Source: Amphiscolops sp. MND2022
Taxonomy: Eukaryota
Assembly (NCBI GenBank): GCA_964187785.1
Contig: OZ076409.1
Location: 43,774,001-43,838,000, forward strand
Reading direction: 5' to 3'
Length of the DNA: 64,000 bases
Shown here: positions 1 through 41,266 of the stretch, in pieces
Layout of the letters: each line of letters opens with the position of its first letter
Position numbering within the stretch: position 1 is the stretch's first letter
Made by a program: the position numbers and the translations under genes
The notes under the pieces: model-generated
Told to the model about the DNA's origin: nothing
Seen by the model: only the letters and a program-made list of their open reading frames with translations
Database searches by the model: none

Positions 1-2643
1 CAGCACCGCAATGCCGATGGCTTGAGCAAACGAACCAATGAATATCGATGCCGAGAACAGCAGCTTGCGCAGCTGCCAGCTAGTGGAGAGCGTTGGAACT
101 TCCTCTCTGCCGAGGAATTCGATAACCTCCCCATAGCCCCATGGTTCGACCTGCAAGGTCGAATCATTCCAAATCACCCTGACCTACCACCGCATCTGCA
201 GAACTTGGAGCCTAAGGCTCCTGACCAGGCACTCCGTGTGCTTCGCCGTGTGCAACGTGCGAACAAACGAAAACGACAGGCGGAGGCGTTAGCCGCGCCT
301 TTACCGCCTCAGCCTCCACCCGTGTTGCAAAAGCACGAAGACTTCTACCCAGACTATCCTGAAGACTGGATAGATGTCACCACTGAGGCCAGCGAGGATT
401 ACCTACTACCAACACATGCAGTAAATGTCCCCTCGCGCACCATCTATTCTGTGACGGAAACGAGTAACGCTATGCTACAGAATTCTCCTGGTGGCGTGCG
501 CGAGTCGATCATGGCTCTCAAGGATATCGACACCGAGCTCCATGAACACACACACACCGTGCATGGGATCAAGGACTTGGTTTTAGCCCAAAACCGCGAT
601 GTCCATGTGCTAGCATTGAAAAAGCTCGTGCAGTGTGAGTCCGTGTTTCCCGACAACGTGCGCGAGTTCGCACGAAATTACTTCCGCCAGAAAAAGGATC
701 TCTTGTTCATAAACAAGAATCATGTCCTTTGCGTTCAATACTCCCCCACCCAACGCCCACTGCACGAACGTCCGTGCATGATTATAATGCCTCAATTGTA
801 CCAGCACGAGATTCTGTTCCGTGCACACGACGCAATGGGACACCAAGGCATCTCAAAGGTGGTAGCTCGAATTCAAGAGCGCCACACTTGGCCCGGCATA
901 AGGCGCAGCGTCGGTCGGTACGTCGGCCAATGCCTCACCTGCCAACAAGTACGTGACAAGCCTGGCGACGTACGATTCCAACTGAAAAACATTCAGAGTG
1001 GCTACTTCAACGAGTTGGTCCAATATGACCACTTAAAAATTTGCCCCTCTGATGACAACAACACCGGCATTTTGGTCATCATTGACCATTTCTCTAAATT
1101 TGCAGAGGCAGTCCCTTGTAGTCATCATGACTATGACGCAGTGACTACCTCACGATTGCTGCTGCAGAAACGGTTTGCCCGCCACGGCACCCCCACTCGC
1201 ATGCAATCCGACAATGCCCCCAACCTTACTGCTGAAGTCTCTAATGAGTTTCTAAAGGCAGCTCACGTCACTAAAGTGACCTCCACTGCCGGACATCCAC
1301 GAACTCAAGGCTTGGTGGAACGACAAAACCGTACCCTCTTAACCTTGTTGCGAGTCTTTTGCTCACGTCGCATGCGCGACTGGGACCAGTGCTTAGATGA
1401 AGTGATCGGTGCCTATAATTCCACCAGGCACGCCACTACAGGCTTCTCGCCCTACATGTTAACAAGGGGTGTTGAGAAAGCAATTCCCCTCACCTTTTTA
1501 TACCCTGAATTTGCAGCCAAGTCCTTCGATACGCATGAAGCATACGTGGATCATGTGTTGGCTCGCCAACAAGAAATTCACGACTTGGTTCGGCGCAACA
1601 CGCACCAAGCCCAATTGCGCCAAAAACTGAAATATGATCGTGCTATCCGCGCACGAGCTTACCAGCCGGGAGAGCTCGTCTGGGTTTTTTGCCGCTACGT
1701 GCCGCAAAAAGGCTCTCCAAAATTGATGCGCGCCTGGCGTGGCCCGCACAAAATAGTGCAAGTTTTTCAAGAAGAACGTGTCTATGTATTGGACACAGGC
1801 CAAAAGGTTCATTTTGAGCGCCTGAAACCTCATAATAGTGGGCCCCTTGAGCTCGCCACCGCGCAAGCGGACAGCGGCGAAATCGTGGTACTCATGGACC
1901 CTGATCCTGAACGTTCTATTGAAGCAGTTGACGACGACAAGTCCCAGCCTTCATATAAAACTGAACAACTACTTTCAGAAGCATCTGACGTATCCTTGCC
2001 TTCGCGCAAGCAACATTGGATGGATACCCGTCTGCGCACAAAGTTACGTGCTGGAGGTTCCCGCATGCACTACCAGCAATTTGACTACTCAACTTCGGGC
2101 ACTGACGACGAGTTGTCCGAAGTCATGCTACCGGTACTTCCTGATCCCGCTGATGCCGATCGCAGGGAGCCCGAACCCCAACTCCCTTCAGACCAGTCAA
2201 TATCACCTACCCATCACCTGCCTCAACTATTCTCCGACCATGAGCGCGCGCGCTCTCCGTCACCACGAATATCCTCTCCCGAAAGACAGCCCTCTTTACT
2301 GGGCACATCGGCCCCACTACTGACAAATCCATCACTGACAAGCTTCCTCGACAACTATCCCATTTGGCCGGCCTCCCCTTCCCTTCCTCTAAAATCTGCC
2401 ACTGAGGACGACGACGCTCAGTCCAATGTCCCTACTCTTCCCACAACATTGCCCGGAGCGGGGACCGCTCCTTCTTTTAAAAGGGGGAGGGGGAGACCAC
2501 CCAAAACGCGAAAAAGGCTGGTCAGAGCGAAGGCAAGAACGAGGAAGAAAGAAACTACAACAACGACAATGGGCCGGGGAGAGAGATTATCTACCCGGGA
2601 ATCCTGTATCCAGCCCCAACAGAACACCTCTCATATGATGTGA
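1..2643 (+). CDS. pol: Gypsy Pol C-terminal part (end of RNase H, integrase, AT-hook tail), 5'-partial
   Basis: Frame is open from base 1 (QHRNADGLSK, RNase H end motif). HHCC finger HDAMGH...CLTC; DDE core QYDHL / QSDNA / LVERQN; GPY/F-like WRGPHK; KRGRGRPPK AT-hook at 2479-2505. Confidence 0.93.
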   Translation, partial: QHRNADGLSKRTNEYRCREQQLAQLPASGERWNFLSAEEFDNLPIAPWFDLQGRIIPNHPDLPPHLQNLEPKAPDQALRVLRRVQRANKRKRQAEALAAPLPPQPPPVLQKHEDFYPDYPEDWIDVTTEASEDYLLPTHAVNVPSRTIYSVTETSNAMLQNSPGGVRESIMALKDIDTELHEHTHTVHGIKDLVLAQNRDVHVLALKKLVQCESVFPDNVREFARNYFRQKKDLLFINKNHVLCVQYSPTQRPLHERPCMIIMPQLYQHEILFRAHDAMGHQGISKVVARIQERHTWPGIRRSVGRYVGQCLTCQQVRDKPGDVRFQLKNIQSGYFNELVQYDHLKICPSDDNNTGILVIIDHFSKFAEAVPCSHHDYDAVTTSRLLLQKRFARHGTPTRMQSDNAPNLTAEVSNEFLKAAHVTKVTSTAGHPRTQGLVERQNRTLLTLLRVFCSRRMRDWDQCLDEVIGAYNSTRHATTGFSPYMLTRGVEKAIPLTFLYPEFAAKSFDTHEAYVDHVLARQQEIHDLVRRNTHQAQLRQKLKYDRAIRARAYQPGELVWVFCRYVPQKGSPKLMRAWRGPHKIVQVFQEERVYVLDTGQKVHFERLKPHNSGPLELATAQADSGEIVVLMDPDPERSIEAVDDDKSQPSYKTEQLLSEASDVSLPSRKQHWMDTRLRTKLRAGGSRMHYQQFDYSTSGTDDELSEVMLPVLPDPADADRREPEPQLPSDQSISPTHHLPQLFSDHERARSPSPRISSPERQPSLLGTSAPLLTNPSLTSFLDNYPIWPASPSLPLKSATEDDDAQSNVPTLPTTLPGAGTAPSFKRGRGRPPKTRKRLVRAKARTRKKETTTTTMGRGERLSTRESCIQPQQNTSHMM

Positions 2644-3086
2644 CTGATTTTCTTCAAGTAGAATGTGACATAGTGTTGGCGTGTCCCGCTGACCTAGAGA
2701 CGAACTCAGCTGCCCTACGGTACGTGCTACGAGAATGCGGCAAGGAGAATGTGTTCTCCTTACGTCCTAAGGTGGGGGAGATTCTCACCATTCCTCCCGA
2801 TGTCAACCCAAACCCCAATCAGAGTATTCACTTGCTAATAATCAGAGCAAACCAGCGTGCGCCGCTGCTCGCAGACGACTACCTACGTTGTATGACGCAC
2901 TTGATACAGCGTTTGATGGAGAAGGGATCCACGAGGGTCCACCTACCTATACTGGATCCAGAGCGACCCGCCCTCTCACTAGTAAACTTATATCATACCC
3001 TAACGAATTTGCTGGAGGGTACTGGTATTCACGTGGTGCTACATAACCGCGTGTATGTGTCCATTCTGAACATAGGGCTGGAGTAG
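2640..3086 (+). CDS. Macrodomain-like protein (TARG1/OARD1/Poa1p-type), probably catalytically degenerate
   Basis: By-eye colinearity with TARG1: LSYDVTDFL (in frame just upstream) / IVLACPAD / KVGEILTI / IHLLIIR / GSTRVHLPIL / LLEGTGIHVVLH. The frame is open upstream and overlaps the pol end. Confidence 0.65.
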   Translation: MTDFLQVECDIVLACPADLETNSAALRYVLRECGKENVFSLRPKVGEILTIPPDVNPNPNQSIHLLIIRANQRAPLLADDYLRCMTHLIQRLMEKGSTRVHLPILDPERPALSLVNLYHTLTNLLEGTGIHVVLHNRVYVSILNIGLE

Positions 3087-3363
3087 CCCACCCAAAACAT
3101 TTTTGTTGCCCCCTTATTCAATTTGCCCACCCGATAATCGTCATGCCTGGGAAGAAGTCTTAAACTATCCCATGAAATAATTATTTTGTAACGTAGCGTT
3201 AGATAACTTCTATCTTTGTGTTCTAATTAGTTAGTTGAACTACAATTTAAACTTGTTGCGGTTCCCCTATGGAACCATCTTTGCTGCTGAGTGATGAGCC
3301 TTAAGCTCTCCCTATAATGCACTTGGCAAGCCTAACGGTAATCCTTTTTAGACCTATGATATT

Positions 3364-6300
3364 ATGGCTTATTACCCCAACAACACGGTACCTATTGCCA
3401 CGACGGGACCTCACGCCAATAGGACCCAAGAATTGCCTGCGCGAGCGCAGAGGACTAACCAAGTCCAATACGTTGAAGAGAGATTGAGGAACGGCCTCTC
3501 ACCGTTAGCGGTAGCGGGCGTGGCCGCCCTACTTACCCAACTAGACTCAATGCAGACGCTGCCTGGTGTATCCGTGTCTCTGGTGACGGAAGTAGCCGGT
3601 TACCGTCGCACCCTAACCTGCCAAAACAATGCGTGGGATGGCCACGATCTGACGCACCAGTTCCTAGATGAACGGTCCACCACAATGCTCGGACCCAGCC
3701 AAGGTACGAGATTCGAGCAAGAAGCCTCACTGTGTATGGTGCCTGCCAGCGTAGCAACAATGCCTCCTCCTCCGATGGTCGCGTTGCCCCCACCGGCGCC
3801 AAATTCAGTACCAATGACGCCAACTTATTCCGGTTCGCCTGCCTTTGGGACCTCATATCGAGCGCCGCATATGGTATTACAAACCACTACTAATGCACCA
3901 GTCTCTGATCGGAAGCCCTCGGGGTCCCGGTTGCCACCCATACCCAACCCAGAGCTAATGGGAAGGAGTACCAGCGAACAGGCCGTAATTGTGGCTTTGC
4001 AAGCAGTGGCGAATTATCCCAACTCAACCGATTTTGTCCGTGCCGTGGAGCAGAGAATCCCTGGATTAGCCACGTATCTGCAAGCTTCTGCTCAGCCCGC
4101 GGGCTGTGACCCTCCTGCCCCCTTAGTTGAAACAGCCTCTATGGATATGGAAATTGTCGCTGGACCGAGTAACAGCGCAAGCGCTGCCTCTGGCATACGA
4201 GAAGAAGCGGGAAGAAAGCGGCTGACTGAGGAGACCGCCTCAGTTACCCCAGCTGGCTCGGTGACCGAGAGCCCGACTAGTCGTCCCCCTCCGGACAAGC
4301 GCGCTGATGTACCTCGCTCCCAGCTGAAGAGTGTGGTTATCCCTAGGCCCCCGTACCGAGTAGGCCATCTAGGCCGAAGCGCTCCTCAAATGTCTTTGGC
4401 AGACGCGATCGAACTATATGGAGATCCGGATGCAGGCTCGGAAGTGAGCTCTGTGCCCTCGGGCACCAATCCAACAGCCATGTCCCTGGAGATACCTGAG
4501 ACGGTGGAAGAAGCCCATCCTCCAGCCTTCCTCCCTCCATCTGACGACGTATCCGGCTCAGTAGTCACCAATGATAGCAAACGCATTTGGATGGCGACTG
4601 AGCATCTCTATCCCAGTCAATGTGCTATCAAGAAAAGGACTCCTCCAACTGAAACGGAGCAAAAGGAGATCAACCGGACCACGATACCGGCGCAAGTCAC
4701 ACGCTCGCTCCGCCCCCGTGACGCAGACATGTCGGAGCAGGCTTGGGAACAGCGTGCTCGAGAGCAGCTGCCTATGACAACCAACGACTACATGGCACCC
4801 TTGCAACACAATATCACTGAGCAGTTTCCCGCACGGTATGTGTTGCGAGAGGGTGAGACGTGGGAGGCGAATGCCCGTTACGCCCGCAACCTGAGATCCT
4901 TGAAACCCTTATTGAAAGCAGCTCTGCAGCGTGCGCGCTACTGCATCGCAGTTGATTCCACTTGCCGAAGTGACCTTCCCATTGATAATTTAATGCCTGA
5001 TGTGCTGGTGCTAACTATGCCCCTGTCTCGCTTCGCCGAGGTCGCTGAGATGGTCGGAGCCATATACGATCCAAACTTAAGAGGATCACAAAAGGAACCA
5101 CCCCCACAGCGAGTGATCTTCGCCAATCTCCTGGATCACATGGCTTGCGAAGGATTGCTGCATGACCTGGCCGCGATAATGTCCAATGTCCGACGACTGG
5201 AAGACATTGCTGCCCTGGTGAACGAGGTGGTTGGTGCAATGGAACGTGCCGCAGGGATCCTTCGGGGTCGTCTGGGAGCGCTCGCGCTCTTTGTATCCCC
5301 ACCGGGATTCATGTATTGGCCACGCAGTCTGCAGCAGTTCGTCTACATTCTGCTGGAGGTGTGCAAGGCGCGCAGAGTGGAATTCGCCATCTGTGCACCG
5401 AACTTGCGCGTGGATCGAGAGGACCTGCGCCCGGATACCATATCATATCCTGCCTTCTTTGCCGCTGTATCTAGAGCGCTGGTGGCTATAGAACGCTCGG
5501 GAAACGCCCAGCTCACCATTGACGATGCCATCCTCTATGACTATGGAATGCGGATGGGCAGACTGGCCTTTGACCTTGACGGCAACCGCACCGCCCGAGA
5601 ATCCAATGTAACTGAGCGAGAGGCTGTTCGCCGGTACAATTGGCTAGTGCGAAAGGATAAAGAAATCCCAGTGCGCGCAGAATTAGCCGATCTGACGAAG
5701 CAAATTGGTGCATGGCCTGCGGCGCGCACCGTCGAAAGAACGATTCCTCAGATCCGCTTCGCCTCGGGAATCGAGCCCGTGAAGCTGCCTGTAGGGCTGC
5801 GATGTATCATAGCAATAGAAGCAACAAATCTGAAAGCAGAAGTCGACGCCGCAGCTACAACTTATGCTCATTGGTACCAGACTAGGTTTACCACTAGAAC
5901 TCTGGCAGAAGTAGCTCGAGAGCTCGGTTGTCCATTGGAAGCCTTCTGTACCAGTCTCGGTCTAGGATGGAACCTAGAGGTGCTAACTTCTGAGTTCTCG
6001 CTGACCTCTACGCAAACGGACAAATTGTTAGAAACAATTGGGGAGGCAATCGTCGGAGAAATACCAGCGCTCGCGCTAGCGATGGGCCCAACCAAGTTCG
6101 TAGCCGGACCACTGGCTTTGTTAGTCGACATGGTAATTGCCTGCGACCTAACCATGTTCTACAGCTACTTGGTCCTGGCACAAGGACAACTACGCAGTCT
6201 GACCCGTTGGGGTCACTTGATGACTTCCAAAGACCAGCAGGACTATTCCGCACAACTGGAGCGCATGCGTGCGTCAATCCAGCACTGGCTATACTCCACC

Positions 6301-7671
6301 CTGGTGTTCGCCTCCGGCCTATTCGTGGGCGTAGACCAATCCCAACCACTCCATAATCCCAACCAGCAGATTTCCCGGGAAACGGCAGGATTCCCCATGC
6401 CGCAGCAGATTGCAGACCTCACCCTGGCAGAAGTAGAAGACTTTGTGGCGGCAATGGCTCCTGTCTTGGCCCCTATCTTTGGCGCAGTGGGCGTGTGCCG
6501 GTACCCAACAAAACCATTGGCAACGGCCGTCCAAGTGCACATGGTCTCCTTCAGCACTTATCTGCGAGGCCGTCCTTCACTGGCGTATCCAAGGGTGATA
6601 CATGCAGTGCTGAGTGGTGAGGTGCCGCATGGGTACACGACCATAAAATCCGAAAGAGAGTTGGAGGAGAACTTGATGGGCTTGCTGCGCGCGCGCACCA
6701 GGAAAGCATGTCCTCTACCCCGGGAGCATGGACCTGTGAACTGGTATTCCGCACCTCTCAGTTTGGAAGGGGTTCCCTTTAGGTTCCCCTGGAGTCAAGT
6801 GTTCGTGAGAAAGGTGATTCGCGCCAGCACTAGTGCTGGTCCACCCGTGGATCCTCTATACTGCTTCAAATGCATCGCCTTCCCAAATCGTTACTGGAAG
6901 GAGCCGTTAGGTTGGCCCAGGGCAAAACCCTTTGGACGCGCCCCAGAAGTGTTCAACCGCCAAATCCAACACTTGGAGTCAGCCCAGATCCCAGGATGGA
7001 TTGAAGGCGCTGCTCAGATTAGGCAGAGAAATCTCCAATCCCGCGTCATTCCATTCCCCAGGAAGTCGGCATGGAAGCCTACGGGAAAGATGACCATGTC
7101 TGGAGATATGTCCATCGTCCAGCATGATGAGATAAATTCCGTGTTGGGCTCAACAGAACGAGCGCGATGGGAAGAATACTGTCTAGAGTTGGAGATTGCA
7201 AGCTTCCCTAAATGGAAGAGAGCTTGCGAGCTCTGGAGCCAATCTGGATGGATCTCACGCCGTGTAGCACTAGCGGTCGAGGGTAGAGCAGAGATGGCGA
7301 GACAACAGGCGTTCGCGCCTACCATGCTCGCACCCACGATGGCGATGTCCTTGGATCGGCCCATCTCTCAACCGATCACCATTAATCTTCCAACCCATGA
7401 CTTGGAGCCAGACCCAGTTGGCCCGTCTTCGTCGCGAACGAGCCCTGAGTCCTCACAGCAGCAATCCGGAGAGCACACTGCCGAATTGACTCCCAATGCA
7501 GCACTAGTGCAGCCTATTGCCGAGTTGTCGCTCCCCGAAAGTCCGTCGGACTGTGAAACAGCTACAACCGGAGTCTCTCCCCGACGTCGAGCGTCAGTGT
7601 CGACCGACAACCCAGAACAGAACTCAGATGATGCCACTAAAGAGCGGACCCGACGCAGTTCAGCTCAATAA
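3364..7671 (+). CDS. 1435-aa accessory ORF3 of Gypsy A; low-complexity P/S/T termini, central SGNH-hydrolase-like segment
   Basis: Uninterrupted 4.3-kb ORF between pol and the 3' LTR. SGNH-like blocks IAVDS, VLTMP, VIFANLLDH, FVSPPG, EDLRP at about 4939-5480. Confidence 0.8.
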   Translation: MAYYPNNTVPIATTGPHANRTQELPARAQRTNQVQYVEERLRNGLSPLAVAGVAALLTQLDSMQTLPGVSVSLVTEVAGYRRTLTCQNNAWDGHDLTHQFLDERSTTMLGPSQGTRFEQEASLCMVPASVATMPPPPMVALPPPAPNSVPMTPTYSGSPAFGTSYRAPHMVLQTTTNAPVSDRKPSGSRLPPIPNPELMGRSTSEQAVIVALQAVANYPNSTDFVRAVEQRIPGLATYLQASAQPAGCDPPAPLVETASMDMEIVAGPSNSASAASGIREEAGRKRLTEETASVTPAGSVTESPTSRPPPDKRADVPRSQLKSVVIPRPPYRVGHLGRSAPQMSLADAIELYGDPDAGSEVSSVPSGTNPTAMSLEIPETVEEAHPPAFLPPSDDVSGSVVTNDSKRIWMATEHLYPSQCAIKKRTPPTETEQKEINRTTIPAQVTRSLRPRDADMSEQAWEQRAREQLPMTTNDYMAPLQHNITEQFPARYVLREGETWEANARYARNLRSLKPLLKAALQRARYCIAVDSTCRSDLPIDNLMPDVLVLTMPLSRFAEVAEMVGAIYDPNLRGSQKEPPPQRVIFANLLDHMACEGLLHDLAAIMSNVRRLEDIAALVNEVVGAMERAAGILRGRLGALALFVSPPGFMYWPRSLQQFVYILLEVCKARRVEFAICAPNLRVDREDLRPDTISYPAFFAAVSRALVAIERSGNAQLTIDDAILYDYGMRMGRLAFDLDGNRTARESNVTEREAVRRYNWLVRKDKEIPVRAELADLTKQIGAWPAARTVERTIPQIRFASGIEPVKLPVGLRCIIAIEATNLKAEVDAAATTYAHWYQTRFTTRTLAEVARELGCPLEAFCTSLGLGWNLEVLTSEFSLTSTQTDKLLETIGEAIVGEIPALALAMGPTKFVAGPLALLVDMVIACDLTMFYSYLVLAQGQLRSLTRWGHLMTSKDQQDYSAQLERMRASIQHWLYSTLVFASGLFVGVDQSQPLHNPNQQISRETAGFPMPQQIADLTLAEVEDFVAAMAPVLAPIFGAVGVCRYPTKPLATAVQVHMVSFSTYLRGRPSLAYPRVIHAVLSGEVPHGYTTIKSERELEENLMGLLRARTRKACPLPREHGPVNWYSAPLSLEGVPFRFPWSQVFVRKVIRASTSAGPPVDPLYCFKCIAFPNRYWKEPLGWPRAKPFGRAPEVFNRQIQHLESAQIPGWIEGAAQIRQRNLQSRVIPFPRKSAWKPTGKMTMSGDMSIVQHDEINSVLGSTERARWEEYCLELEIASFPKWKRACELWSQSGWISRRVALAVEGRAEMARQQAFAPTMLAPTMAMSLDRPISQPITINLPTHDLEPDPVGPSSSRTSPESSQQQSGEHTAELTPNAALVQPIAELSLPESPSDCETATTGVSPRRRASVSTDNPEQNSDDATKERTRRSSAQ

Positions 7672-8410: not shown

Positions 8411-8427
8411 AGGAGCCTGGGGAGTGA
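8411..8427 (+). promoter_or_regulatory. Polypurine tract of Gypsy A
   Basis: aggagcctggggagtga lies immediately before the LTR start TGTAACG. Confidence 0.65.
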
Positions 8428-9159
8428 TGTAACGGCAAGCTCTGGTACAGCAACATCAACTTCGACATGTTCAGAAAATTTTGTCAAAAATTCGTTCAAA
8501 TTTGACGTGGCACTCAAACATGCTCAAGACGAAGTACCTGCCAGAAAAAGCACCCCAGAAAAGCAGAAATCGCCGCTCGCGACGAACAAGCACCGGAGAC
8601 GACTAAAAAGACGTCCCCAACGCATACAGAACACGGTATTGTGTCAATCTCTAGGAGATATCCATTACTACAGTAAAGGAAACCAGTGTTCCAGATGTTC
8701 GCCTGAGCATCCTTGCGGTATCCTGTGTGGCAACTAGCGCTAGCGCTGGGAACCTGAGGTCAATCTTCATCAAATGACTCTGAACTCTTGATTTCTTGTT
8801 GTATTTTTCGGTGTGGTAAATTAATATGCTCGAGAGCTGTTGTTTAACATCTGTTTATCCAATTTGGCGATTTTATCAGATTCTCCAATATTACGGTTCA
8901 ACCTTCATCGATTTTCAGCCCAATTTTTAAAGGCTAGTTGAGCAGTGGTCTTGAGTCTTGCAAGATGCCTGTTACTTTTAGCAGTTACAGACTAGGACCA
9001 GGCCAGAGAGCGTCCTACAAGACGGTTCCCCCACCTTGGGACTGGCTCTTTCGGAGGGAAAATGAGCTAGGGCCGCGGAGATCTAAGTCCCAGATTACAT
9101 TCGCTGTTCTAGTTCCTCCACTCTACGTTGCGGTTCAAGCGCCAGCGCTTATCGTTACA
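8428..9159 (+). repeat. 3' LTR of Gypsy A (732 bp)
   Basis: Perfect 7-bp terminal inverted repeat TGTAACG/CGTTACA; homologous along its length to the solo LTR at 15454-16303. Confidence 0.85.
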
Positions 9160-9502
9160 ATATCTAAAATTACGAAATAAGATCTAAAATTGTCAAAGTA
9201 GCCATAAACTTACAACAATGTACAGCAATCTCGTCCACAACAGCGATTTCGCAACATCCACATTCAGCTCGCAAGCTGGGGCACCACAGGCACAGATTTG
9301 TGAATTAGACGAAAAGACTCATTTTTACGGTTTTCACTACTTAAGGTAGCATACTGCTGAAGTCAAGGTTAGCACCTTCAAAAGAGTCTAATTTCAGAGG
9401 GTTTTGCAGTCTCTGGCGTCTGTTCGGGCGGCTGGCTTTATGTTTTTTCTCGATCTTCGCTCTTGTTGTCGAAGTACCTGCCAATTTCGTTGAAGGGGAC
9501 CA

Positions 9503-21470: not shown

Positions 21471-21548
21471 GATTTCACAAGTTCCAACACAAGCAACTCA
21501 AAAACGAAAGTACGAGCTTTGCATTACATTTTTTGAAGAAAATCTTGC

Positions 21549-23284
21549 TGTCGTAAGCATTAGAGTCTACTACGCCATCATTTTGGCGGTTACAATTAGG
21601 CTTACTAGTTGAACTGTCCTTAGGGTTACTATTTTGCAGTCCTTCGGAGTATACTTCCGGTCTCTCGGACGAAACGTTCCATCTACTCTGAGTCGAGAGT
21701 CCCGATCCGGCTCTTAAGGCGCACTGAATCTGAGGCAATATCTGATTGCTGATTGCATCACTAATCGCCCTTTGAATCTGGGAATTGACACTACACATCA
21801 TATCATCTAACTCCCTCGACAGTCTCGAGTTCAACTCGCTTGACATCTTGTTAATCTCAGCACTAGAATTACCTCCAGTTGAAATCTGGCCATAATCGGC
21901 ATTATTACCAGGACCTAAGTCTCTTGTGGCTGAGTTTCTATTTTCACCATTATTCTCTAATTCATCTGCAGAAGTACTACCCGGCCTTCTGCCAAAATTA
22001 CTGCTAACACTTTCATCTCTCTCATTTCTACCGAAATGGTTTTCCCCTAACATAATATCGAGGTTTTCTATGTCAGACAGCATTTCTATTCCTCTTGACT
22101 TCCTGGCCTTCTTTTGTCTTCTTGTAGTAGGCATTAAGAATTCGAGGTTGAATAATTTATTGGTGGTCTAGGTTTGCAATCTATAAAAGCGGAACAAACT
22201 AAGTTTGAGTATCATAAAGACAATTGTGTCCACCTCTCGGAACGGGTAGGTATATTTACTTCCGAGAGAATGGAATTTACATATTTTGATATAATACCCG
22301 CAATTTACAAATTCCTTAAGTCACGAGGTTAAGGCACAACACTGGTTAAAATGAGGCGGTTAGCACCTTATCAAAGAACTCTAGGAATTCATACTTGTTA
22401 GGGTCACGAAGTTATATCTTTCCATTTGAAAACATCAACGATATTACTATACGTCATCATAGTTGAGTAGCATCGGCAACAAACTTCAAAAAAATACATA
22501 ACACAACTATCTAAGGAATGTTCATTACGGAATGCTGCCACGCGCCTGCAAATGTCGGCCGTTGCAACAAACAAGTAGCTTTAGCGTAAATCACGAAACA
22601 AAGCACAACATGTCCTAAATCGGCCGTAGGACTTTAATTCATTCAGAGTGAATAGCCTAGTTAGTCCAAAGGACTGGTACTAAGAATTGGGTTGGTATGG
22701 GGGTACTAATTATTTCAAAGAACGTAAAAGCACTAATTATTAACTTCAGGTGTAAATAGAGAGCTTACATGACTATTGAGCACTACAACATTATTAATAC
22801 AATAAGCTACAACAATGACTAAAGCAAAGCCTAATCCGGCCATCTGCCTGGTATTCCAACTAATTAATGCACCATTAAGACAAACGGACATATCCGGCCA
22901 ATTGATTAGAACAGTATTACATCATGAAATACTCGAATATGATTGGTTGGTACATTAGGCTCAAGTGACGCTTTCGGACTGAAAGCTACGTACACTCGAA
23001 TTCGTTTCCTTTAAGCTGTTTAGTAGCTTGCGTTGAACTATAATTTACATTGAGCATTGTTATTTTACAACTTGCAACTTCACTTGTCTAATGTATTATT
23101 AACAGACTAATACACAGTGTATCATAATGAAAATGTAGTTGACCTAGGCAAACATAAATATTGAGAGTAAGTTTTAGAGTTTAACATAAACCTGTTTAAA
23201 ACGTGGGTAGGGTTCCGGGTATAATCTCCTGACTGCCAGCTGAGGTCGTTATTAGAGTGCCATCACAGGCGGCAGCCTGCGACA
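21549..23284 (-). repeat. 3' LTR of Gypsy B
   Basis: Near-identical to 42387-44122 (about 14 substitutions by eye, no indels seen). Confidence 0.96.
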
Positions 23285-29533: not shown

Positions 29534-32500
29534 CTAGTATCTGTAGCCTTCTGAGTAGTTTGGGTTGGGATTAGGCCTGAGATTATATTTCCCTCTTCTA
29601 GGACTCAGGCTTTCATTTCTAGCATCGTTTTCAGATATTTCGGGCATCAGAATAATATCATCCCCCTTGTTTGGAGAATTTTGTGTATCGTTTTCATTCG
29701 TCAATTTTCTTTTTGAAAAATTTTCATCGTTTTTCGGTCTATCTGCCGTATTCGGCAATGATTTTTCTTGGTTTTTTGGGGAAACGGCCGGATTCGGCCA
29801 ATTGGATTCTTCATTTTCTGTGACTGCAGTAAATTCATTTCCTTCAGTGACGTCATTATTTAAGTGGTCATTCCGGCTGTGCGCCGCATTGTCATTGATC
29901 GTTACTTCTCGCGTGATTACGTAATCCGCTTCATTCTCGGTTACGTCATTTGTACTCGTTTCTGCCGCATTCGGCCGTTCGCCATTCGGCATGTTGGTCG
30001 GAATAGGTTCGCTGTCTCGTGTAACTAGTTGCTCGCCAAAGTCGGTTTCCCACGTTATGACGTATAAATCATCTTGCGGAATGACAATTTCTTCATCTGG
30101 CTGCAACTGTTGTTCTCGGAAATTATCCTCAAGCGGTTGATTGGGGACAAACTTCTTAAGACGATTGCGATGCAAAATTTTAGTTTTGTTCGTATTGATC
30201 CGTCGTACTATATAGTTTTCATTTGGCAAAACTTTTTGGACTACAAATGGTCCAACCCAACGGTAATCGCGGAATGGTTTTTTTGATCCTTGATTATCCG
30301 CTTTATGCTGTAAGACAAAACAGTATTCGTTCTCCTTTAGTGGAGCGGCTTTTGCTTTGCGGTCGTAATATTCTTTGTACTTGATATACGACTGCATAAT
30401 GTTCTGTTTGGTTTTGTCAATTAGGATTTTTGTCCTATATTGGATTTCTTCAGCAAATTCGGTTGTAGGGTTGATTTTTTCGTTTGGATTATTTCCAAGC
30501 TTGTGATCCAGAATATTATAGGGAATTCTGCCATGGAATACCCTTGTTGGTTCACAACCGATGCTGGTATGATAACTAGTATTATGATTAAGTACTGCTA
30601 ATGGCAAGTATTTATGCCATTGTCGGCGGTATTCCCCGCATGCCATTTTGAGATTCGTCTTTAATGAGGCATGGGTCCGCTCTAATTTCCCAATTGTTTG
30701 TGGGTGTTTTGTCGTTGCACATTTGAGTGTGATACCCAAAATCTGCGTAACCTCCGCAATAATTGTAGAAGTAAATGCTGTACCTTTGTCAGTAATAAGA
30801 GTTGTTGGCAGATATGAATGTTTGGTCATGATGTCAATGATCGCTTTTGCTACATTGATCGCTGATGAGTCCGTAAGAGGATATGCGAACAAATATCTGG
30901 AAAATACGTCGATTGCTGTTAGGACATTCTCGTACCCTCCACTTGGGGGAAGATTCGGCAATAGGTCGATTTGCATGGCGTCTTCAGGTCCAAGGTCCCA
31001 TTCGGGCAAGTTGAGTAGCTCAGGTGTGATCGTTGCGTTAGGGACTCTCTTGTCTCTGACACATTGTTCGCACCCTTCTACCCACTTTTTGACGTGCTTA
31101 GCCATGCTAGGGTAATAATACCTCTGTCGAATTTCCTGCAGCATTTTTGAAATCCCAGGATGTTTATGTGCTGTCCCGTGAAAGGATTGTAGTAATTCCT
31201 GGAGTAAATGTTGCGGGAGCAGAATTTGATGGTATTTAACGTTCCCTGTTTCATCAAAATATTGCCTTACTAGGATTTCGTCCTTTAGTACAACCCGTTC
31301 CAGATTGTTTGCGTAATGTCTACATCGGGCATCCTGGTGCAGTAAATTTTCTGAATACTCTTCATGAAGCAGTTTTGCTTTCAATTGCTGTAGAACTGCA
31401 TCTTTTGATTGTTCGATAATGATCTGGTTGGTTTTCCTCAATCGGACTTGTATATCGGGGTGTTGCTTGACTAGATTTGTTGACAGAGTTTGTATAGTAA
31501 CAGTGGGCTCATCAGTTGTTGGATTTTTCCTGATTGCTTCTTTTCTTGCCCACAACTGCAAGATTTGTTCTTCTTGCGACACTCCTGCAGATTGGACATT
31601 GATTTCAATTGGTAGTGTTTGTACATCTTCGCGAATTTTCATCACCAATTTGTCCTTCGGGTCTGCTTCCAATCGGGACAAATATTCGGCAGCTGTATTT
31701 TGTGCCCCTGGGATGTGTGCTATGACAAAATTAAACTGAATGACATAATCACACGCGTTCCACAGGGCTGGGGGTATTATTTTTGTTTGGAAAAATCTCG
31801 TGACAGCTTTGTTGTCAGTAAGGATGATGACCGGTTTTGGCGCACCCTAGAAGATATGCCCGAATTCTTTGAATGCAAAATAAATTGCAAGGAATTCTTC
31901 GGCATAAATTGACATTTTAATCTGTGCTGGGGTGAAAGTTTTTGATCCATATGCAACTGGTGCATACGATTTTCTGAGTGACGTAAATTTCTGGTTTGGG
32001 TCGTCTTCGATTAGGACCGCGTACCCGGCTGCACCAAAACTTGCATCAGTCATTAGTGCTATTTGTTTGTTTGGAATGGGTTGCTGTAATGCCAAGTTGC
32101 AACACTTGTCGAGTGCTCTGTTGATTTCTTCGTATTGTTGGACTAATTCTTTCGATACTAGGACCTTTTCGTCATTTTTGAGCATCTTGTAGAATGAAGC
32201 AAGGCGTTCGGAGAGTCTTGGGACATAATTCCTGTAGTAGTTTAGGAATCCCAAATATCGTTGTAAAGCCTTTTTCGACTTCGGGAATTTGGTCTTTTCC
32301 AGAAAGTTTTGCACGTTCTGTTTCTGGGGTTTGACGCCTTGTGGGGTAATAGTTCGTCCGAGAAAATCAATTTCTTTTGCACCGAAGTGACATTTGTGCA
32401 TTGTTAACTTAAGGCCTGCTTCCTGAATGCATTTGAACGAAGCTCTCAGGTTCGTCATGAGGTGGTCTACATCATTGGCTGCGATGCCGATATCGTCCAC

Positions 32501-34023
32501 ATACTGGGCACACTGGTCCGCTTTAATGACTTTGTCAAGGTATTCTCTCATGAAACTCGAGAATGCGGATAGTGACCGACTAGGTCCTTGTGCCAAACGT
32601 CTGTAAGCGAATGTGCGACTGGCAAAATTGAAAGCCAACATTTCGATTGAGCGTTGGTCGGCCATTGGTAGGCAATGGTATGCCTGCGAACAGTCTAATT
32701 TACTGAACAGTTTTTTGCCTGCCAAGTGTTGGGCGGCATCAACTAGTGTACTGACGGGTTGATTGTTGTTGATATAATCATCCGAAATGAGGTTGTTGAT
32801 TTTTCTCAAGTCAACCAAGAGTCGGAGTTTCCCATTCGGCTTCTTTTGTGCAAATATTGGACTCGCGTATTTCGAAAATGGGAGTGTAGTTATTATGCCA
32901 TATTTGTGTAACATGGCTAATTCAACTAGGATGTCCTCTTTTAGATTGATAGGAGCTGGGAGGCTTTGACTATAGACTGGGGAATCGTCTTTAGGCGTTA
33001 GTTTCACCTTGAATTCCTCGTTCATGCCTATATCAAATCGGTGTCGTGCAAAGATGTCATGGAATTCTACTAACAGTTCCTCAATCTTCTCCTTCTCTTC
33101 AGGAGTAAGGGTGGAATCTTTCCAGTCAAAATTTTCTAAGAATTTTGCACGCGATTCTGCATCTGTAGTGGGGTCGAGTGTCTCCAGGTCCTGCAGGGCC
33201 TGCAACTCGCGTAGGATTCGTTTTTGTATAGGTGTGTGTTCCTCAGGATTTCCAGGATTCGCTGGAGTTGGGAATCAATAATTTTCGGAGTTTTGTGGAT
33301 TTCTATTGGTCTTGATGAGGCTGCTGATATAATGGGCTGCTTGCTCCTGGTCATTCTGCAAAAGGTGCCAGGTTGATGCCGGGTCTATCGGTTTGACGTA
33401 TTTCATTTGTTCTGGCGTCATTACTGAGAAATTGGCTATATGAAGTCCCTTTTTTAGTTTATAAGGGTGGTCCGTGAAATTATTCACAGGTATTGATATA
33501 CTGCCATTATTCAAGGTGACCAGGGCTGGGCAGAATGTGATGTCGCCTTCTTTATGTAGAAGGTCGCTCGGTTGCAAAATCCCAGTGACAGCATTTTCAG
33601 GATATAGTAAGGAATTAGTCCGAATTAGGACTCTGTCATTTGGCGGAATAGTTATTTCAGCAGGGTTGAGGATTGGTTCAAGTACGTTTGAGTACTTATG
33701 GTCAGCTGTTTTGAGCTGCATTGAAAAGAACGGGAAATTCAAAATTCCTTGTCTCATGTCCAGTACTGTATGATTTCGTTGAAGGAACATTAGTCCAATG
33801 ATCGGTCCCGTTAGATTCTCCATTATCATGAAGATTTCGTGGAACTCAATGTCACCAACCTCAAATTTGAGCTCTATGGTACTCTTAGAAGTTTCCAATT
33901 GGCCATTTGCGACCATTATTTGAATGTTCGGAGGCGGACCTTCTCGTATAACTGATTGTGGTGATAGGAGTCGGATTTTCCGGAGGTCCATTTCAGGGAT
34001 TGCACTGGAAAGTGCTCCAGTGT
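29534..34023 (-). pseudogene. pol: Gypsy B pol: protease (C-terminal part), RT, RNase H, integrase
   Basis: RT QYVDDI, LDCSQAYH; RH LMTDAS...TDNK; IN HGTAHKH..CEQC, QIDLL, ITDKG, KLERTH, WVGPF. In-frame stops at 33275 (TGA) and 31847 (TAG), both plausibly ex-Trp codons. Confidence 0.95.
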
Positions 34024-34947
34024 TGTAACGGCTGCTTGCCTTTATCCTGCGCTGAGGCTTGACAAGCCTTACGCCGCCCTGATCCGTTGCTTAGTGCTGT
34101 GGACCGTCACTAAACAATTCCTGGTTTTCTTGTTTTAAAGGACTGTATCTTTCAGCTTGATGGGTCCGATGTGACCCGTGGAATCTCCTGCGATCCCTCT
34201 TTTCACTGAATTGGATCCGATGTGATCCGTAACACACTTCCCTCACAGTATCTTCACGCGCTCCGGCTCTCCAACTATGAGAGTAGCTACTTAGTCGCTC
34301 TGACTCTAGCGAAAAGTTGTGAAGATTGAGAAGTTGATTAATTAGTCTCGCGGTCCTGAGACCCAACTTGACTATAGCTATTCAGTGGAGAAAATCTCTA
34401 TCTAATAATGGTATACATATGGTTTACAATTCTACAGTAAATATAAGCAAATATCAGTTGAAATATGTTGTATAAATAAATGACATTTAAGTGAATTATT
34501 AAAGTTATTGGCTATGTAAACAAAGAATGTGGTGGTTTTGGCATGTTGGTCAGGTGGGCTCAGAAGCATGTTTACACTATGTAAATATCATCAATTGCAA
34601 CAGAGCTGCATTCTAATGTGGTCAGAAGGGTAAATAGCAATGTTTACATTTTTGTCTCAATGACCTTGAATACTACACATGTGAGGGGTAATGGGGGTTA
34701 TAATGGGGGAATGACCTTGAAACTTAGCCGGTGTGTCCGTATTATGTACTTGCATATGTGTGCCAAGTTTCAAGTCTCTATGGTTAATAGTTGTAGAGAA
34801 AATCCCGACTGGGGGGGGGGTTTCGATTTAGCAAGGTGAGGTTTTCGTTCAAATTTTCATCTAAGTTTCGAAGAGTTTTAAGTTCTTGTTTCTCAACCAG
34901 CATGTTCTAAATCGACTTTCTCTGCTTTCTGATGACTGGCGCCAACA
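34024..34947 (-). repeat. BEL 3' LTR (924 bp)
   Basis: TG...CA termini; about 10 differences from 39646-40568 by eye. Confidence 0.95.
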
Positions 34948-37900
34948 TTGCCGGCCCTGTTTTTCTCCTGAAAAACACTTTCGTAGAACATGGGTGCCAG
35001 TTTCACTACTGGTCTTTTGAGTTTTCCATCTTCCGTTTTCACCAGCGCTGATCTCACTCGCCCATCGCTTCCATGATAGACTTCTAACACTCTGCCCATC
35101 GTGTAGTGTGCTCTTTTTACATTGTCATCTACTATCCAAACCAAATCATTGACTTCCAGTTGTCTAACTTCTTTAATCCATTTTCCAAAAAATTGAAGTT
35201 GCATCATCATTTCTTCCCATGATACAGCCGGCCCTATGAAAGGCCCACTTTCCGAACTTGTTGTTGTTTGTGCTTTTGAAGAGCCCAATCGCGTTTCCAT
35301 TAGCGATATTTCATCTGCAAATTCATCAATCACAATCTTTGCATATAGGATGCCAGTATTCAACTGAGCGCTTTCGTTCCTTCCATGTAATCGAATTGAG
35401 ATAGGTTCAAACTTCCAAGCTCGTTTCTCGATTAGCTTGCTCTGGCCAGTGCTCAGTTGAGTGTGCACGTTAGGGTTAGCTTGTGCCACTGCATCCATTC
35501 CCGAGTTTCCATTACCTAACCAGTTGTTACATTTCTCTCTGTCGTTTGGAATAATTTTGTCCAGTGGTTTTTCTTTCAGCTCAACATGTTTTCTCCAAAA
35601 TGACATCTTTACGGCTTTTGTTCGATCACTTGTGTTCTCTTCAGACGGTTGGTTGCGTTCCAACAAACCACTGAAAAGTCTTCGATATATCGCTTTGCCT
35701 CGTGGAACTTCATGAAGTTCAATTTGACACTCTTTTACGAATTTAACCACTTTGTTCATTTGAGAACACTTTTTTCCCTCGCCAAGTGTTAAGGTCTTGG
35801 CAGCGAACTTCACGGCTTGCATTTGAGTTGGTTGCTTTTCTTCGACATGCTGTCGTACAGAGGCGACATCTATATTCTCTTTCAGCAAATCAAGCTTCAC
35901 AGTAAAGTCTTCCAGGGTTCGGAGGTTTGATTTAATTGCAAAACTTTCATGTTCGTTCTTTTCTTCTACAATTGAGAAACCCATGCTTTTGTCTTGTTCG
36001 ACTATCGTATGGTCACTCACAGCTAGGTGCATTTCGTCTTGCCAGACTTGCTTGTTCTCCAAAAGGAGGGGTTTAGTACTGACTTCCTGCCAGTTTCTTT
36101 CTACAACGAATATGTCTGGTGAGTTCTCCGTATTTTCCTTGGACATTTCGGATACGCTGCAGTGGGAAGTATACACTTCCATGCTCGACCGAGTTTTCAT
36201 CTGATCCACCAATGGATCCACATCTGCAAAAACCAAACTTTCAGTGGCGAACTTCGCAGTTTCTTGTTGAGGCAAGGGTCCACTAAGCATCCACCCCAAT
36301 TTTGTCAATACGGCCCAAGGTTTTGACTTTCCACATTTTCTATACCCAATGGCTCTATGCAAGTGGTAACAATCTTGTCCCAAGATGACTTTTACATCTT
36401 TCAGGTTGATGGTAGAATCTTTCAGCACGGACAGGTGTGGATATTCTTCCTTCAATTTCTTGAGGTTGTACGTTCGATTTCCTGCATTTACGTCGGGATG
36501 ACTATAGGCCATGATATCTTCTTTGACTTTTCCGTCCTGATCTCCAATCCTGACCCTTAGTCGTTTACTACTAATATCTGACTTTCCATGAATTCCTGCA
36601 ACATTCAGCTCCACTTGCTGTCCCGTCAGATTTAGCGCTTTCATCAGACTCTCGTCCACAAATGACAGGCTTGCTCCAGAGTCACACAAAGCGAACGCTT
36701 TCAGAGTTTTGCTCCCACTTCCTATCGTTACTGGAACGACCGGAAGCACACCACTGCTTTTCATTGATGACAGGTTAGAAACCTCATCAACATTTTCAAC
36801 ATTTTGCTTCTGGTCCTCGTTCTTGTAAGGTCGGTGTAGCAATCGGTGATGAGGTTTTCCGCAACCATTGACGTCGCAGAGTCTACCAGAGCAATTTCTC
36901 ATCTGATGTGCGTCTGACAAGCATTTGAAGCACAGCTTCAGTTCTTTCGCCTTTTGTCCTCTTTCTTCGACGTTCATCTTCTTGAATTTCTCACATTTCC
37001 ATATCGGATGTTTGCCATCTTTCAACGCACACTCTCGCTGGTATTTTGAGTTGTCACTGGCTGTGTCTGGTGCTGATGTTGCAAACGTAGAACCTTCGGC
37101 CTTTTCCTTGTAGCTCGTCTTTGCGCGATCAGCATTTAGATTCGAATACAATAGCAATTCATCTTGAACATCTGCTATATCATTGAGCCACTCACTGAAC
37201 ACAGCGAGTCCCGGTTGATACAGGTTCATTTGCTTCACATAAGTGAGCCACTTCGTTTTCATGTCCAGTGTTAACTTCCTTGTGGCACTGCCCAGAACTC
37301 CTTCTGAGTTTAGGTCTCCCACGTAGTTGAATTGTGTCAAAACATTCACGCAACTCGACACTATTCTCGCAAACTTGATCAATGCGGCTCCATCATAAGG
37401 TTTCATCGGAGGGAACGAATAGATTCGCTTCAACTGGGCGTTCACAACCATTTGAGGTTTTCCAAAGTTTCGAACTAGAACGTTCCACGCCACATTGTAC
37501 ATCTCAGCAGTGTACCCAAGGCCAGCAATCGCCTCCTTGGCTTTGCCTGTGACCATAGTTTTCAGGTGATTCATCTTTACACTGTCGTCCATATTGGCTG
37601 CGTGGACGGTTGCTTGAAAGAGTTGGGACCACTCTGGCCACTCCAATGGGTCACCGGAAAACTCTGCCAGCTTCAGTTTTGGCAAGCTAGATCTGATGTA
37701 GTAGTCATCTCTCGCATTTGACACTATGTTTGGCCCTTGACTTGGCATATACTGCTTCTGTGTGTTCGCAAGCTGTGGTACTTGAAATGCACCACTCTGG
37801 ATGCCTCCAAACGTAGGCGGTAACCGATTCGGGTCTGCACTGAGAGTCATCGACGGCTTCGATGGGGCGAATTTCACTTCTTGTTGTGCTGTTGCACTTT

Positions 37901-39242: not shown

Positions 39243-39276
39243 CTCTTCTCTTGTCGATTGAGTTTAGTTCCAAAGT

Positions 39277-40568: not shown

Positions 40569-41266
40569 AGTGTCAATTTGGCCGTCAATGGTTAATTCCC
40601 CAAAGTCCATCGGAAAATACAACATTCGCTTTTTGCATTTAAGGTTGATACTGGTCGAAAGTGGTATACAGTCTGGTTCTCCCTCTTTGGTAATGAGGAT
40701 ATTTTGGAATTGTTTCTCGTCCAGTAGTGATTGTGGAATTGGTTCCGTACTGGCTTCGTTAGTTTCGGTTCCCAAGGGGTTCGGGAATACTGGATGGTTA
40801 GTACCATCATTCATTTGCCAGTTTTCGACTAGTGCTCTGGTTTTCTTGTTATGGGTTATCGGAGGGTTTTCGTGGACTGTGGTTTGGTAATGGGCTATAT
40901 CATCCAGGACGTATTGGAATTGTAGTAGGTCCTGGTTGTAGATCTCAATGTCCCAATAGGGATCTCTGCCGTAATCTGGGTCGATGTACGTTGGATTGTA
41001 ATCATCGATCAAGGGAATGGGCCTGAATCGGGTTGTAAAGGTGGTTGTGTAATCAGGATCCCAAGCAGGAATTGGTTTTTGGAACAGATGGGTATTATTA
41101 TAGGTAATAACGATGGCCTTCTCCATCTGTTGCTGCCAGACAACAGAGGGGTAACCCATCAATTGTTGTTGATATTCATGGAAAGTTTTTGTTGGAGATC
41201 CGACCTGATATATTGACGGACGGATATTATTTGGTTGTATTGGAGTCGTGGCGAAGTTAGTTTTTT
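40569..41266 (-). pseudogene. pol: Gypsy B pol N-terminus up to the protease Asp
   Basis: KKRMLYFPMDFGELTIDGQIDT, cut by the BEL insertion; slippery A-AAA-AAC at 41260-41266. Confidence 0.85.

What the first reader, a model, noticed from the sequence alone, without database searches (positions are those of the whole stretch)
2622..3086. TARG1-like macrodomain appended to a Gypsy integrase with an AT-hook
Seen: an ORF overlapping the pol stop aligns by eye along its length with TARG1/OARD1. Its frame is open well upstream, so it may be a Pol C-terminal domain separated by a frameshift or deletion near 2550-2640. TARG1 ITK is IIR here and the GCGLD loop is DPERP. Established: viruses use macrodomains against ADP-ribosylation defences, and C-terminal reader domains (chromodomains) steer Gypsy integration. 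Inference: a catalytically dead ADP-ribose reader that, with the AT-hook at 2479-2505, could target integration or counter PARP signalling.
Basis: partly seen in the sequence, partly recalled or inferred. Interest (0 to 1): 0.72.

Follow-up and report, generated by a model that had tools for sequence, protein, structure and literature searches.

The report
Twin pseudo-enzyme tail on retrotransposon integrase
This stretch is the last piece of a jumping gene's main protein, cut off here by a deletion; intact sister copies end in a DNA-gripping hook and two predicted copies of an ADP-ribose-removing enzyme fold that lack the usual catalytic residues yet stay conserved, so they likely work as a binding tether, in a family that also leaves unusually short 3-base footprints where it inserts.

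Summary
Observation confirmed and extended. The ORF is the C-terminal domain of a 3128-aa Gag-Pol of an 18.9-kb Gypsy-type LTR retrotransposon. It is out of frame only in this copy, through a ~898-bp deletion at ~2564 that none of 28 measurable sisters share. AlphaFold plus Foldseek/VIA give TARG1 as top match (E 3e-9; Z 15.7). The deleted DNA encodes a Cys motif and a second TARG1-like domain (E 1.6e-5; Z 11.8), so intact integrase ends AT-hook, Cys4 motif, macro, macro. Both lack the catalytic Lys/Asp and the glycine diphosphate loop, yet are under purifying selection (pN/pS 0.06 and 0.12) and persist in relatives at 37-51% identity. Canonical ADP-ribose reading is doubtful; a non-catalytic, arginine-lined binding tether (SARS SUD analogy) fits better. 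No targeting to AT-rich or repeat DNA was seen. Unexpectedly, 22 of 25 insertions have 3-bp target duplications with TG..CA ends, unlike Gypsy (4-6 bp) and Troyka (CG..CG). Other Gypsy lineages in this genome carry catalytically intact TARG1 at four positions. The scan noted TARG1-on-Pol before, here and in other genomes. New variant of a known kind.

The parts
1..2643 (+). 3' part of gag-pol in this copy: end of RNase H, integrase (H2C2 zinc finger 790-954, core 1009-1299), GPH form of the GPY/F motif, Ser/Pro-rich linker; runs into a premature stop after the deletion
   Evidence: full domain order CCHC-PR-RT-RH-IN in a sister copy
2479..2505 (+). AT-hook-like motif KRGRGRPPK followed by a basic stretch
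   Evidence: Pfam AT_hook only 6.9 bits against cut-off 17.4; RGRP present, 1-3 times, in 5 of 5 long homologs examined
2560..2568 (+). junction of a ~898-bp deletion private to this copy; the missing DNA encodes a C-x2-C-x4-C-x-C motif, a beta-rich segment and macrodomain 1
   Evidence: folds
2622..3086 (+). macrodomain 2 (TARG1/ALC1-like fold, about 2613-3050) and the true Pol C-terminus and stop; out of frame with pol in this copy
3352..7671 (+). second ORF, 1439 aa, in the env position; intact in this copy and in 2 of 3 sisters read; no family assigned here
8416..8427 (+). purine-rich tract before the 3' LTR
8428..9159 (+). 3' LTR, 732 bp, TGTA..TACA; differs from the 5' LTR (upstream of the window) at 1 base
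9160..9162 (+). 3-bp target site duplication (ATA), matched before the 5' LTR

Best explanation
The ORF is the last domain of the Gag-Pol of a high-copy Gypsy-type retrotransposon, whose integrase carries an AT-hook, a four-cysteine motif and two predicted TARG1-fold macrodomains that have lost TARG1's catalytic pair and likely serve as a non-catalytic binding tether for nucleic acid or an acidic partner rather than as an ADP-ribose eraser. Shown: fusion in sister copies, the private deletion, residue losses, purifying selection, conservation of the whole tail in deeply diverged relatives. Predicted: both folds. Inferred: an ancestor captured an active TARG1 (as other Gypsy lineages of this genome still carry), the domain was duplicated and its diphosphate loop turned into D-x-x-R in both copies; the tail stays on integrase after protease cleavage; AT-hook and basic patch grip DNA, the cysteines bind zinc, and macrodomain 2 uses its remodelled, arginine-lined cleft to hold the integration complex on DNA, RNA or chromatin, as the tandem SUD macrodomains of SARS coronavirus do with G-rich nucleic acid. 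In the window's own copy the tail is broken and cannot be made.
For: Fusion. Folds: macro 2; macro 1; macro1-macro2 profile match E 2.7e-5, prob 75%; macro 2 against intact retroelement TARG1 profile E 3.6e-11, macro 1 E 4.9e-6. Catalytic loss: Lys at the K84 site in 1 of 34 macro-2 rows and 0 of 43 macro-1 rows; G-x-G in none; D125 aligns to Pro in macro 2. Selection: between two intact copies macro 1 has 13.5 silent and 2.5 replacement differences (pN/pS 0.06), macro 2 17 and 6 (0.12), against integrase 0.05, RT 0.11, linker 0.29. The tail is whole in P0152, P0153, P0154 at 51, 39, 37% identity. Cleft-mapped positions of macro 2 are more conserved than the rest (0.68 vs 0.50, p 2e-4), and 4 of its 7 best-conserved polar residues are Arg, two at the cleft (40 of 47, 35 of 37). 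Precedent for tandem glycine-less macrodomains that bind nucleic acid and not ADP-ribose: PMC2674928 (passages).
Against: No binding or activity data. Both macrodomains are net acidic (pI 5.7 and 5.9), unlike a general nucleic-acid binder. Macro 2 keeps the Asp of the first loop (36 of 50 rows), recalled as the adenine contact, which suits an ADP-ribose-like ligand. Cleft conservation is partly structural, and weak for macro 1 (p 0.05). Insertion sites show no targeting signal: flank AT 0.62-0.64 at all distances, no shared repeat in most, copies on all 13 large contigs. An ALC1-like hydrolase lacking both TARG1 residues exists (SCO6735; PMC7050489, passage). The macro tree cannot order duplication and decay (no outgroup, long branches).
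Confidence: 0.42

Rival explanations
1. Catalytically dead reader of ADP-ribose or poly(ADP-ribose): conserved arginines replace the glycine backbone contacts, and the tandem pair binds PAR at damaged or PARP-marked chromatin or shields ADP-ribosylated element proteins.
For: First-loop Asp kept in macro 2 (36 of 50); cleft conserved; two near-invariant Arg at the cleft; tandem macro readers exist (PARP14 macro 1-2 among fold hits); binding without hydrolysis matters for a viral macrodomain (PMC12632316, abstract).
Against: Asp and Pro in place of G-C-G, Ala for the Gly of the second loop (42 of 52), and an 18-residue deletion after strand 2 of macro 1 should crowd the diphosphate site; glycine loss abolished binding in SUD and IBV domains (PMC2674928, passages).
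Confidence: 0.3
2. Active ADP-ribosyl hydrolase with a non-canonical mechanism that removes host ADP-ribose marks from the element's RNA, cDNA or proteins.
For: DarG keeps only the Lys and SCO6735 neither residue, yet both are hydrolases (PMC7050489, passage); intact TARG1 is common on other Gypsy Pols of this genome.
Against: Catalytic pair and glycine loop are lost together, in both copies; no conserved acidic or His residue stands out in the macro-2 cleft besides the loop Asp.
Confidence: 0.13
3. Protein-interaction or particle-assembly module unrelated to integration, for example a partner of the 1439-aa ORF2 product or of a host silencing or translation factor.
For: Acidic surfaces; no targeting signal; ORF2 is conserved in the same lineage; a SARS macrodomain II structure in complex with Paip1 is among the fold hits.
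Against: Position directly behind an AT-hook and a Cys motif on integrase points to DNA or chromatin; no interaction evidence.
Confidence: 0.13
4. Neutral decayed remnant of a captured gene.
For: The window's copy itself is broken; sequence identity to TARG1 is 12-16%.
Against: pN/pS 0.06-0.12; open frame and motifs kept at 37-51% identity.
Confidence: 0.02

Closest known systems
Human TARG1/OARD1/C6orf130 (PDB 4j5s, 4j5r, 2lgr), ALC1-like macrodomain class with DarG and Poa1p
   Same: Top fold match of both domains; minimal macro fold; top profile hit
   Different: 12-16% identity; K84 is Arg or Ala/Ser, D125 is Pro or Gly, G-C-G loop is D-x-x; two copies in tandem; fused to integrase
Gypsy Pol proteins with intact TARG1-like domain in the same genome (L082-L100)
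   Same: Macrodomain on Pol, mostly at the integrase C-terminus; L049 domain matches TARG1 at E 1.2e-27
   Different: Single domain; 18 of 20 loci read keep T-K and a G-x-G-x-D-like loop; no AT-hook near it; RT-RH only 21-34% identical to this family
SARS-unique domain (SUD-N, SUD-M) of coronavirus nsp3 (PMC2674928)
   Same: Two tandem macrodomains without the glycine motif inside a viral polyprotein; proposed to work alike
   Different: Different macro class and origin (VIA Z about 7, far below TARG1); SUD has basic surfaces; analogy only
Chromoviruses (Gypsy with C-terminal chromodomain; bioRxiv 10.1101/2021.11.30.470311, passages)
   Same: Accessory domain behind the integrase GPY/F region
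   Different: No chromodomain here; no targeting shown
Troyka LTR retrotransposons (PMC12440569)
   Same: 3-bp target site duplication
   Different: Ends TG..CA, not CG..CG; CX2CX4HX4C knuckle; GPY/F-like motif present; 732-bp LTR and 17-kb interior, beyond Troyka's ranges
Macro domain ORFs of fish epsilon-like endogenous retroviruses (PMC4977317, one passage citing Basta 2009)
   Same: A macro domain carried by an LTR retroelement
   Different: Retroviral lineage, described as additional ORFs; class and activity not stated in the passage

Membership tests
TARG1/ALC1-like macrodomain | Minimal macrodomain fold closest to TARG1/DarG | tested here: met
   Macro 2: Foldseek E 3.0e-9, VIA Z 15.7, rmsd 2.7, 138 aligned. 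Macro 1: E 1.6e-5, Z 11.8, rmsd 2.8, 116 aligned (2afc and DarG tie within 1 Z)
TARG1 hydrolase | Catalytic Lys84 | tested here: not met
   Arg in 40 of 47 macro-2 rows, Ala/Ser in 51 of 57 macro-1 rows
TARG1 hydrolase | Acidic partner at position 125 | tested here: not met
   Pro in 22 of 31 macro-2 rows; Gly in 41 of 48 macro-1 rows by the macro1-macro2 alignment (register less sure)
ADP-ribose-binding macrodomain | Glycine-rich diphosphate loop | tested here: not met
   G-x-G in 0 of 34 and 0 of 43 rows
ADP-ribose-binding macrodomain | Asp of the first loop (adenine contact; role recalled) | tested here: inconclusive
   Asp in 36 of 50 macro-2 rows; Asn 28, Asp 5 of 44 in macro 1
ADP-ribose-binding macrodomain | Measured binding or hydrolysis | not testable with these tools
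   needs bench assay
Gypsy/Metaviridae | Order PR-RT-RH-IN, CX2CX4HX4C knuckle, TG..CA LTRs | tested here: met
Gypsy/Metaviridae | GPY/F motif after the integrase core | tested here: inconclusive
   W-R-G-P-H-K at the expected place, read by eye; no Pfam hit there
Gypsy/Metaviridae | 4-6-bp target site duplication (typical, per PMC12440569) | tested here: not met
   3 bp in 22 of 25 sites; only one poly-A site also fits 4 bp
Gypsy/Metaviridae | RT phylogeny within reference Gypsy clades | not tested
   no named references in hand; the tree holds only unnamed families
Troyka | 3-bp target site duplication | tested here: met
Troyka | CG..CG termini and CX2CX8-10HX4C knuckle | tested here: not met
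   TGTA..TACA ends; CX2CX4HX4C
AT-hook | R-G-R-P core with basic flanks | tested here: inconclusive
   Core present and conserved, Pfam score under cut-off; AT-rich DNA binding untested

The most novel reading that the evidence does not exclude
A distinct LTR-retrotransposon lineage whose integrase cuts with a 3-bp stagger despite TG..CA ends (a second such group besides Troyka) and has turned a captured ADP-ribose eraser into a duplicated pseudo-enzyme that, with AT-hooks and a zinc motif, forms a new kind of integrase tether. The same genome then holds the whole series from active TARG1 to dead tandem reader, a natural test of whether animals use ADP-ribosylation against LTR retrotransposons.
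Probability: 0.3. Interest if true: 0.75.

Novelty: new variant of a known kind. Interest (0 to 1): 0.52.

Why it matters
Integrase C-terminal appendages decide where LTR elements land and how they evade silencing; chromodomains are the textbook case. A conserved tandem pseudo-TARG1 would add a new class of appendage and a new example of macrodomains re-purposed away from ADP-ribose. With at least five RT-distant Gypsy lineages in one genome carrying the domain at four positions, mostly with catalytic residues intact, the question whether ADP-ribosylation restricts LTR retrotransposons becomes testable with isolated domains. The 3-bp duplication with TG..CA ends also matters for annotation tools that assume 4-6 bp.

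Tried and rejected
Single-sequence Pfam and PDB searches missed the domain; weak cadherin and PARP1 zinc-finger hits (E 0.4-2.6) are chance. ESM Atlas gave only a lead (Macro cluster at 0.90, rank 5). The profile comparison was void because both alignments shared full-length members; redone on trimmed columns. Profile A3 found nothing in PDB by sequence. Stand-alone gene: rejected (no early ATG; fused in sisters). Programmed frameshift: rejected (deletion private to this copy). Shared non-autonomous deletion subfamily: rejected (1 match). Troyka: rejected on ends and knuckle. My first mapping of D125 to Arg (note 2) was wrong and was corrected. Expression and a read check of the deletion: no run was listed, so an assembly error at the junction is not excluded. 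Packing of macro 1 on macro 2 was not assessed (whole-tail pTM 0.54). The beta-rich segment around macro 1 was not matched by any listed fold; barely tested. TSDs of the other macro-bearing families could not be read, as both LTR ends were not inside the fetched stretches. Literature: 0 papers for macrodomain + LTR retrotransposon + gypsy, for macro domain + retrotransposon + integrase + Ty3 and for epsilon-like retroviruses + macro domain; listings showed no title on Gypsy macrodomains; one search listed one unrelated maize paper for 3-bp TSD. Repbase and subscription journals are outside the library; supplements were not opened and may bear on novelty. The TARG1 structure paper (PMC3642678) is not held.
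Full report
1. The observation. Frame 2481-3086 is open for 201 aa and overlaps the stop of the pol frame 1-2643. The pol frame holds the integrase zinc finger and core and KRGRGRPPK at 2479-2505. The candidate ORF has no Pfam family and no macrodomain hit as a single sequence.

2. The element. A search of the own genome gave 3448 first-look candidates, of which 150 were scored, all 94-100% identical and spread over the 13 large contigs and a few small ones. Three have open frames of 3128-3132 aa that end in this domain; 25 of 150 are open for at least 1060 aa and 78 of 150 for at least 500 aa. Two such frames were read: PNMA-like capsid, CCHC knuckle, protease, RT, RNase H, integrase, then a long tail. 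The element is 18.9 kb with 732-bp LTRs and a second ORF of 1439 aa. LTR pairs differ at 1-11 bases in the 16 pairs of equal length: a recent burst. The window's copy lacks DNA at ~2564: 28 of 29 sister loci had both anchors, all 28 carry 792-901 extra bases, 19 exactly 898. The junction occurs once in the genome. This copy also has a frame break upstream of the window. So the 'overlapping ORF' is an accident of one dead copy; an assembly error there is not excluded.

3. The tail. A search of the last 468 aa found 320 relatives at E 0.001 or better, 150 listed; 113 of them went into alignment A1. Its profile hits TARG1 first in PDB (E 0.0038). AlphaFold (mean pLDDT 81) gives two domains. The window's domain matches TARG1 at Foldseek E 3.0e-9 and VIA Z 15.7, ahead of DarG and Poa1p. 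The upstream domain, folded alone (pLDDT 89.5), also has TARG1 first (E 1.6e-5; Z 11.8, with 2afc and DarG tied). The two trimmed profiles match each other (E 2.7e-5, probability 75%). Before them lies C-x2-C-x4-C-x-C, predicted with low confidence and read as a likely zinc site. RGRP and the Cys motif occur in 5 of 5 long homologs examined, and both macrodomains in 4 of those 5 (P0159 ends early); macro identities fall to 40-47% where integrase is 67%. All these homologs are unnamed ENA proteins, so the taxonomic range is unknown.

4. Selection. Between two intact copies pN/pS is 0.06 for macro 1, 0.12 for macro 2, 0.05 for integrase, 0.11 for RT and 0.29 for the linker (uncorrected counts). 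Eight more diverged loci give 0.07 for both domains, not independent of each other. The tail works for the element.

5. The cleft. TARG1 uses Lys84 and an acidic residue 125 (PMC7050489, passages, which writes Glu125; the solved chain shows Asp there). In macro 1 the Lys site is Ala/Ser, the loop is D-x-Y-R-G and about 18 residues after strand 2 are missing. No row of either domain keeps G-x-G (0 of 34, 0 of 43). Both share D-x-x-R, which suggests duplication after remodelling; the tree separates both from intact domains (99/97) but has no outgroup and flags long branches. Macro 2 keeps the first-loop Asp (36 of 50), and cleft positions are more conserved than the rest (p 2e-4; macro 1 p 0.05). 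The cleft thus seems re-purposed, not abandoned. In SARS SUD, tandem macrodomains without the glycines fail to bind ADP-ribose and bind G-quadruplexes (PMC2674928, passages). Against certainty: SCO6735 lacks both residues yet is a hydrolase (PMC7050489), binding alone can matter for viruses (PMC12632316, abstract), and both domains here are net acidic.

6. Insertion sites. Of 27 sites attempted, 2 pairs lacked one LTR; of the 25 read (19 pairs, 6 lone LTRs) 22 have an exact 3-bp duplication, against about 2% by chance per site; 3 have none. Two further copies agree. Ends are TGTA..TACA. PMC12440569 (parts 1-3 of 5 read) states that LTR elements other than Troyka make 4-6 bp; Troyka has CG..CG ends and another knuckle, so this is not Troyka. 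Flanks are 62-64% AT at all distances from 10 to 300 bp, within the range of the window's other DNA (no genome-wide background measured); only 4 of 25 flanks share any repeat. No targeting is evident beyond an A-N-N-[3]-N-N-T bias. A link between the tail and the 3-bp stagger is untested.

7. Context in the genome. Pfam Macro found three long retroelement frames; their domain matches TARG1 at E 1.2e-27 with T-K and G-C-G-L-D intact. It retrieves 150 scored of 1556 candidates. I read 20 of these loci, chosen for long frames: the domain sits at four positions in Pol or Gag-PR, 18 keep the T-K and a G-x-G-x-D-like loop, 2 (L081, L089) have decayed separately. Their RT-RH is 21-34% identical to this family's. 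The family studied here is the far end of a series.

8. Known and new. Macro domains on LTR retroelements are mentioned for fish epsilon-like ERVs (PMC4977317, one passage); chromatin readers on Gypsy integrases are well known (bioRxiv 10.1101/2021.11.30.470311, passages); ADP-ribosylation by SIRT6 silences L1 (PMC4695847, passages). PMC9503650 and PMC6338049 (term look-ups; part 1 of 4 for the latter) did not mention retrotransposon macrodomains. My searches listed no paper on TARG1-like domains in Gypsy Pol, on a tandem dead form, or on TG..CA elements with 3-bp TSD; I recall database annotations of Poa1p-like macrodomains on retrotransposon polyproteins, so the single fusion is probably not new. 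Earlier notes of this scan report TARG1-on-Pol in two other genomes and twice in this one; the lines shown do not mention a tandem or the 3-bp TSD. ORF2 as esterase (PMC5408684, outline and section 3.3, gives the precedent) stays unconfirmed.

9. Verdict. Real, conserved and functional in the family; dead in this copy. New variant of a known kind. Most likely a non-catalytic binding tether on integrase (0.42), then dead ADP-ribose reader (0.30), odd hydrolase (0.13), protein-interaction module (0.13). Interest 0.52.

Noticed in passing
   Followed up: partly
L051-L080, L101-L120 (LTR junctions): 3-bp TSD in 22 of 25 sites with a palindromic bias: A three bases before the TSD in 18 of 25 (p 3e-5 at 31% A), T three bases after it in 13 of 25 (p 0.02).
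   Followed up: yes
L081-L100: TARG1-like domain on other Gypsy-type elements at the Pol C-terminus, between RNase H and integrase (L095), before RT (L094) and after the protease in an 834-aa ORF (L097, L100); 1556 first-look candidates, 150 scored.
   Followed up: partly
L081:1318-7161, L089:2758-8547: A second lineage whose single C-terminal macrodomain has also lost the T-K and G-C-G-L-D motifs, nested by RT among intact-type families: a separate decay.
   Followed up: partly
G000:C1:43765924-43768600 (upstream of the window) and sister copies: About 2.7 kb without a long ORF between the 5' LTR and gag, and a TGG-type primer-site-like motif that starts about 15 bases after the LTR instead of next to it.
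   Followed up: no
window 29534-34090 (-): Another, frameshifted Gypsy-type pol (integrase Pfam hits).
   Followed up: no
window 34893-39263 (-): 1456-aa ORF with DUF1759 and DUF5641, BEL/Pao-type.
   Followed up: no
window 59745-63320 (-): 1191-aa ORF with a protein-primed type B DNA polymerase domain, likely Polinton-like.
   Followed up: no
window 21475-22167 (-) and 41257-43005 (-): Two copies of a further repeated ORF with near-identical starts.
   Followed up: no
L045, L046, L047: Host-like canonical Macro genes; L047 has an H2A-like exon upstream and looks like macroH2A (by eye), which points to an animal host.
   Followed up: no
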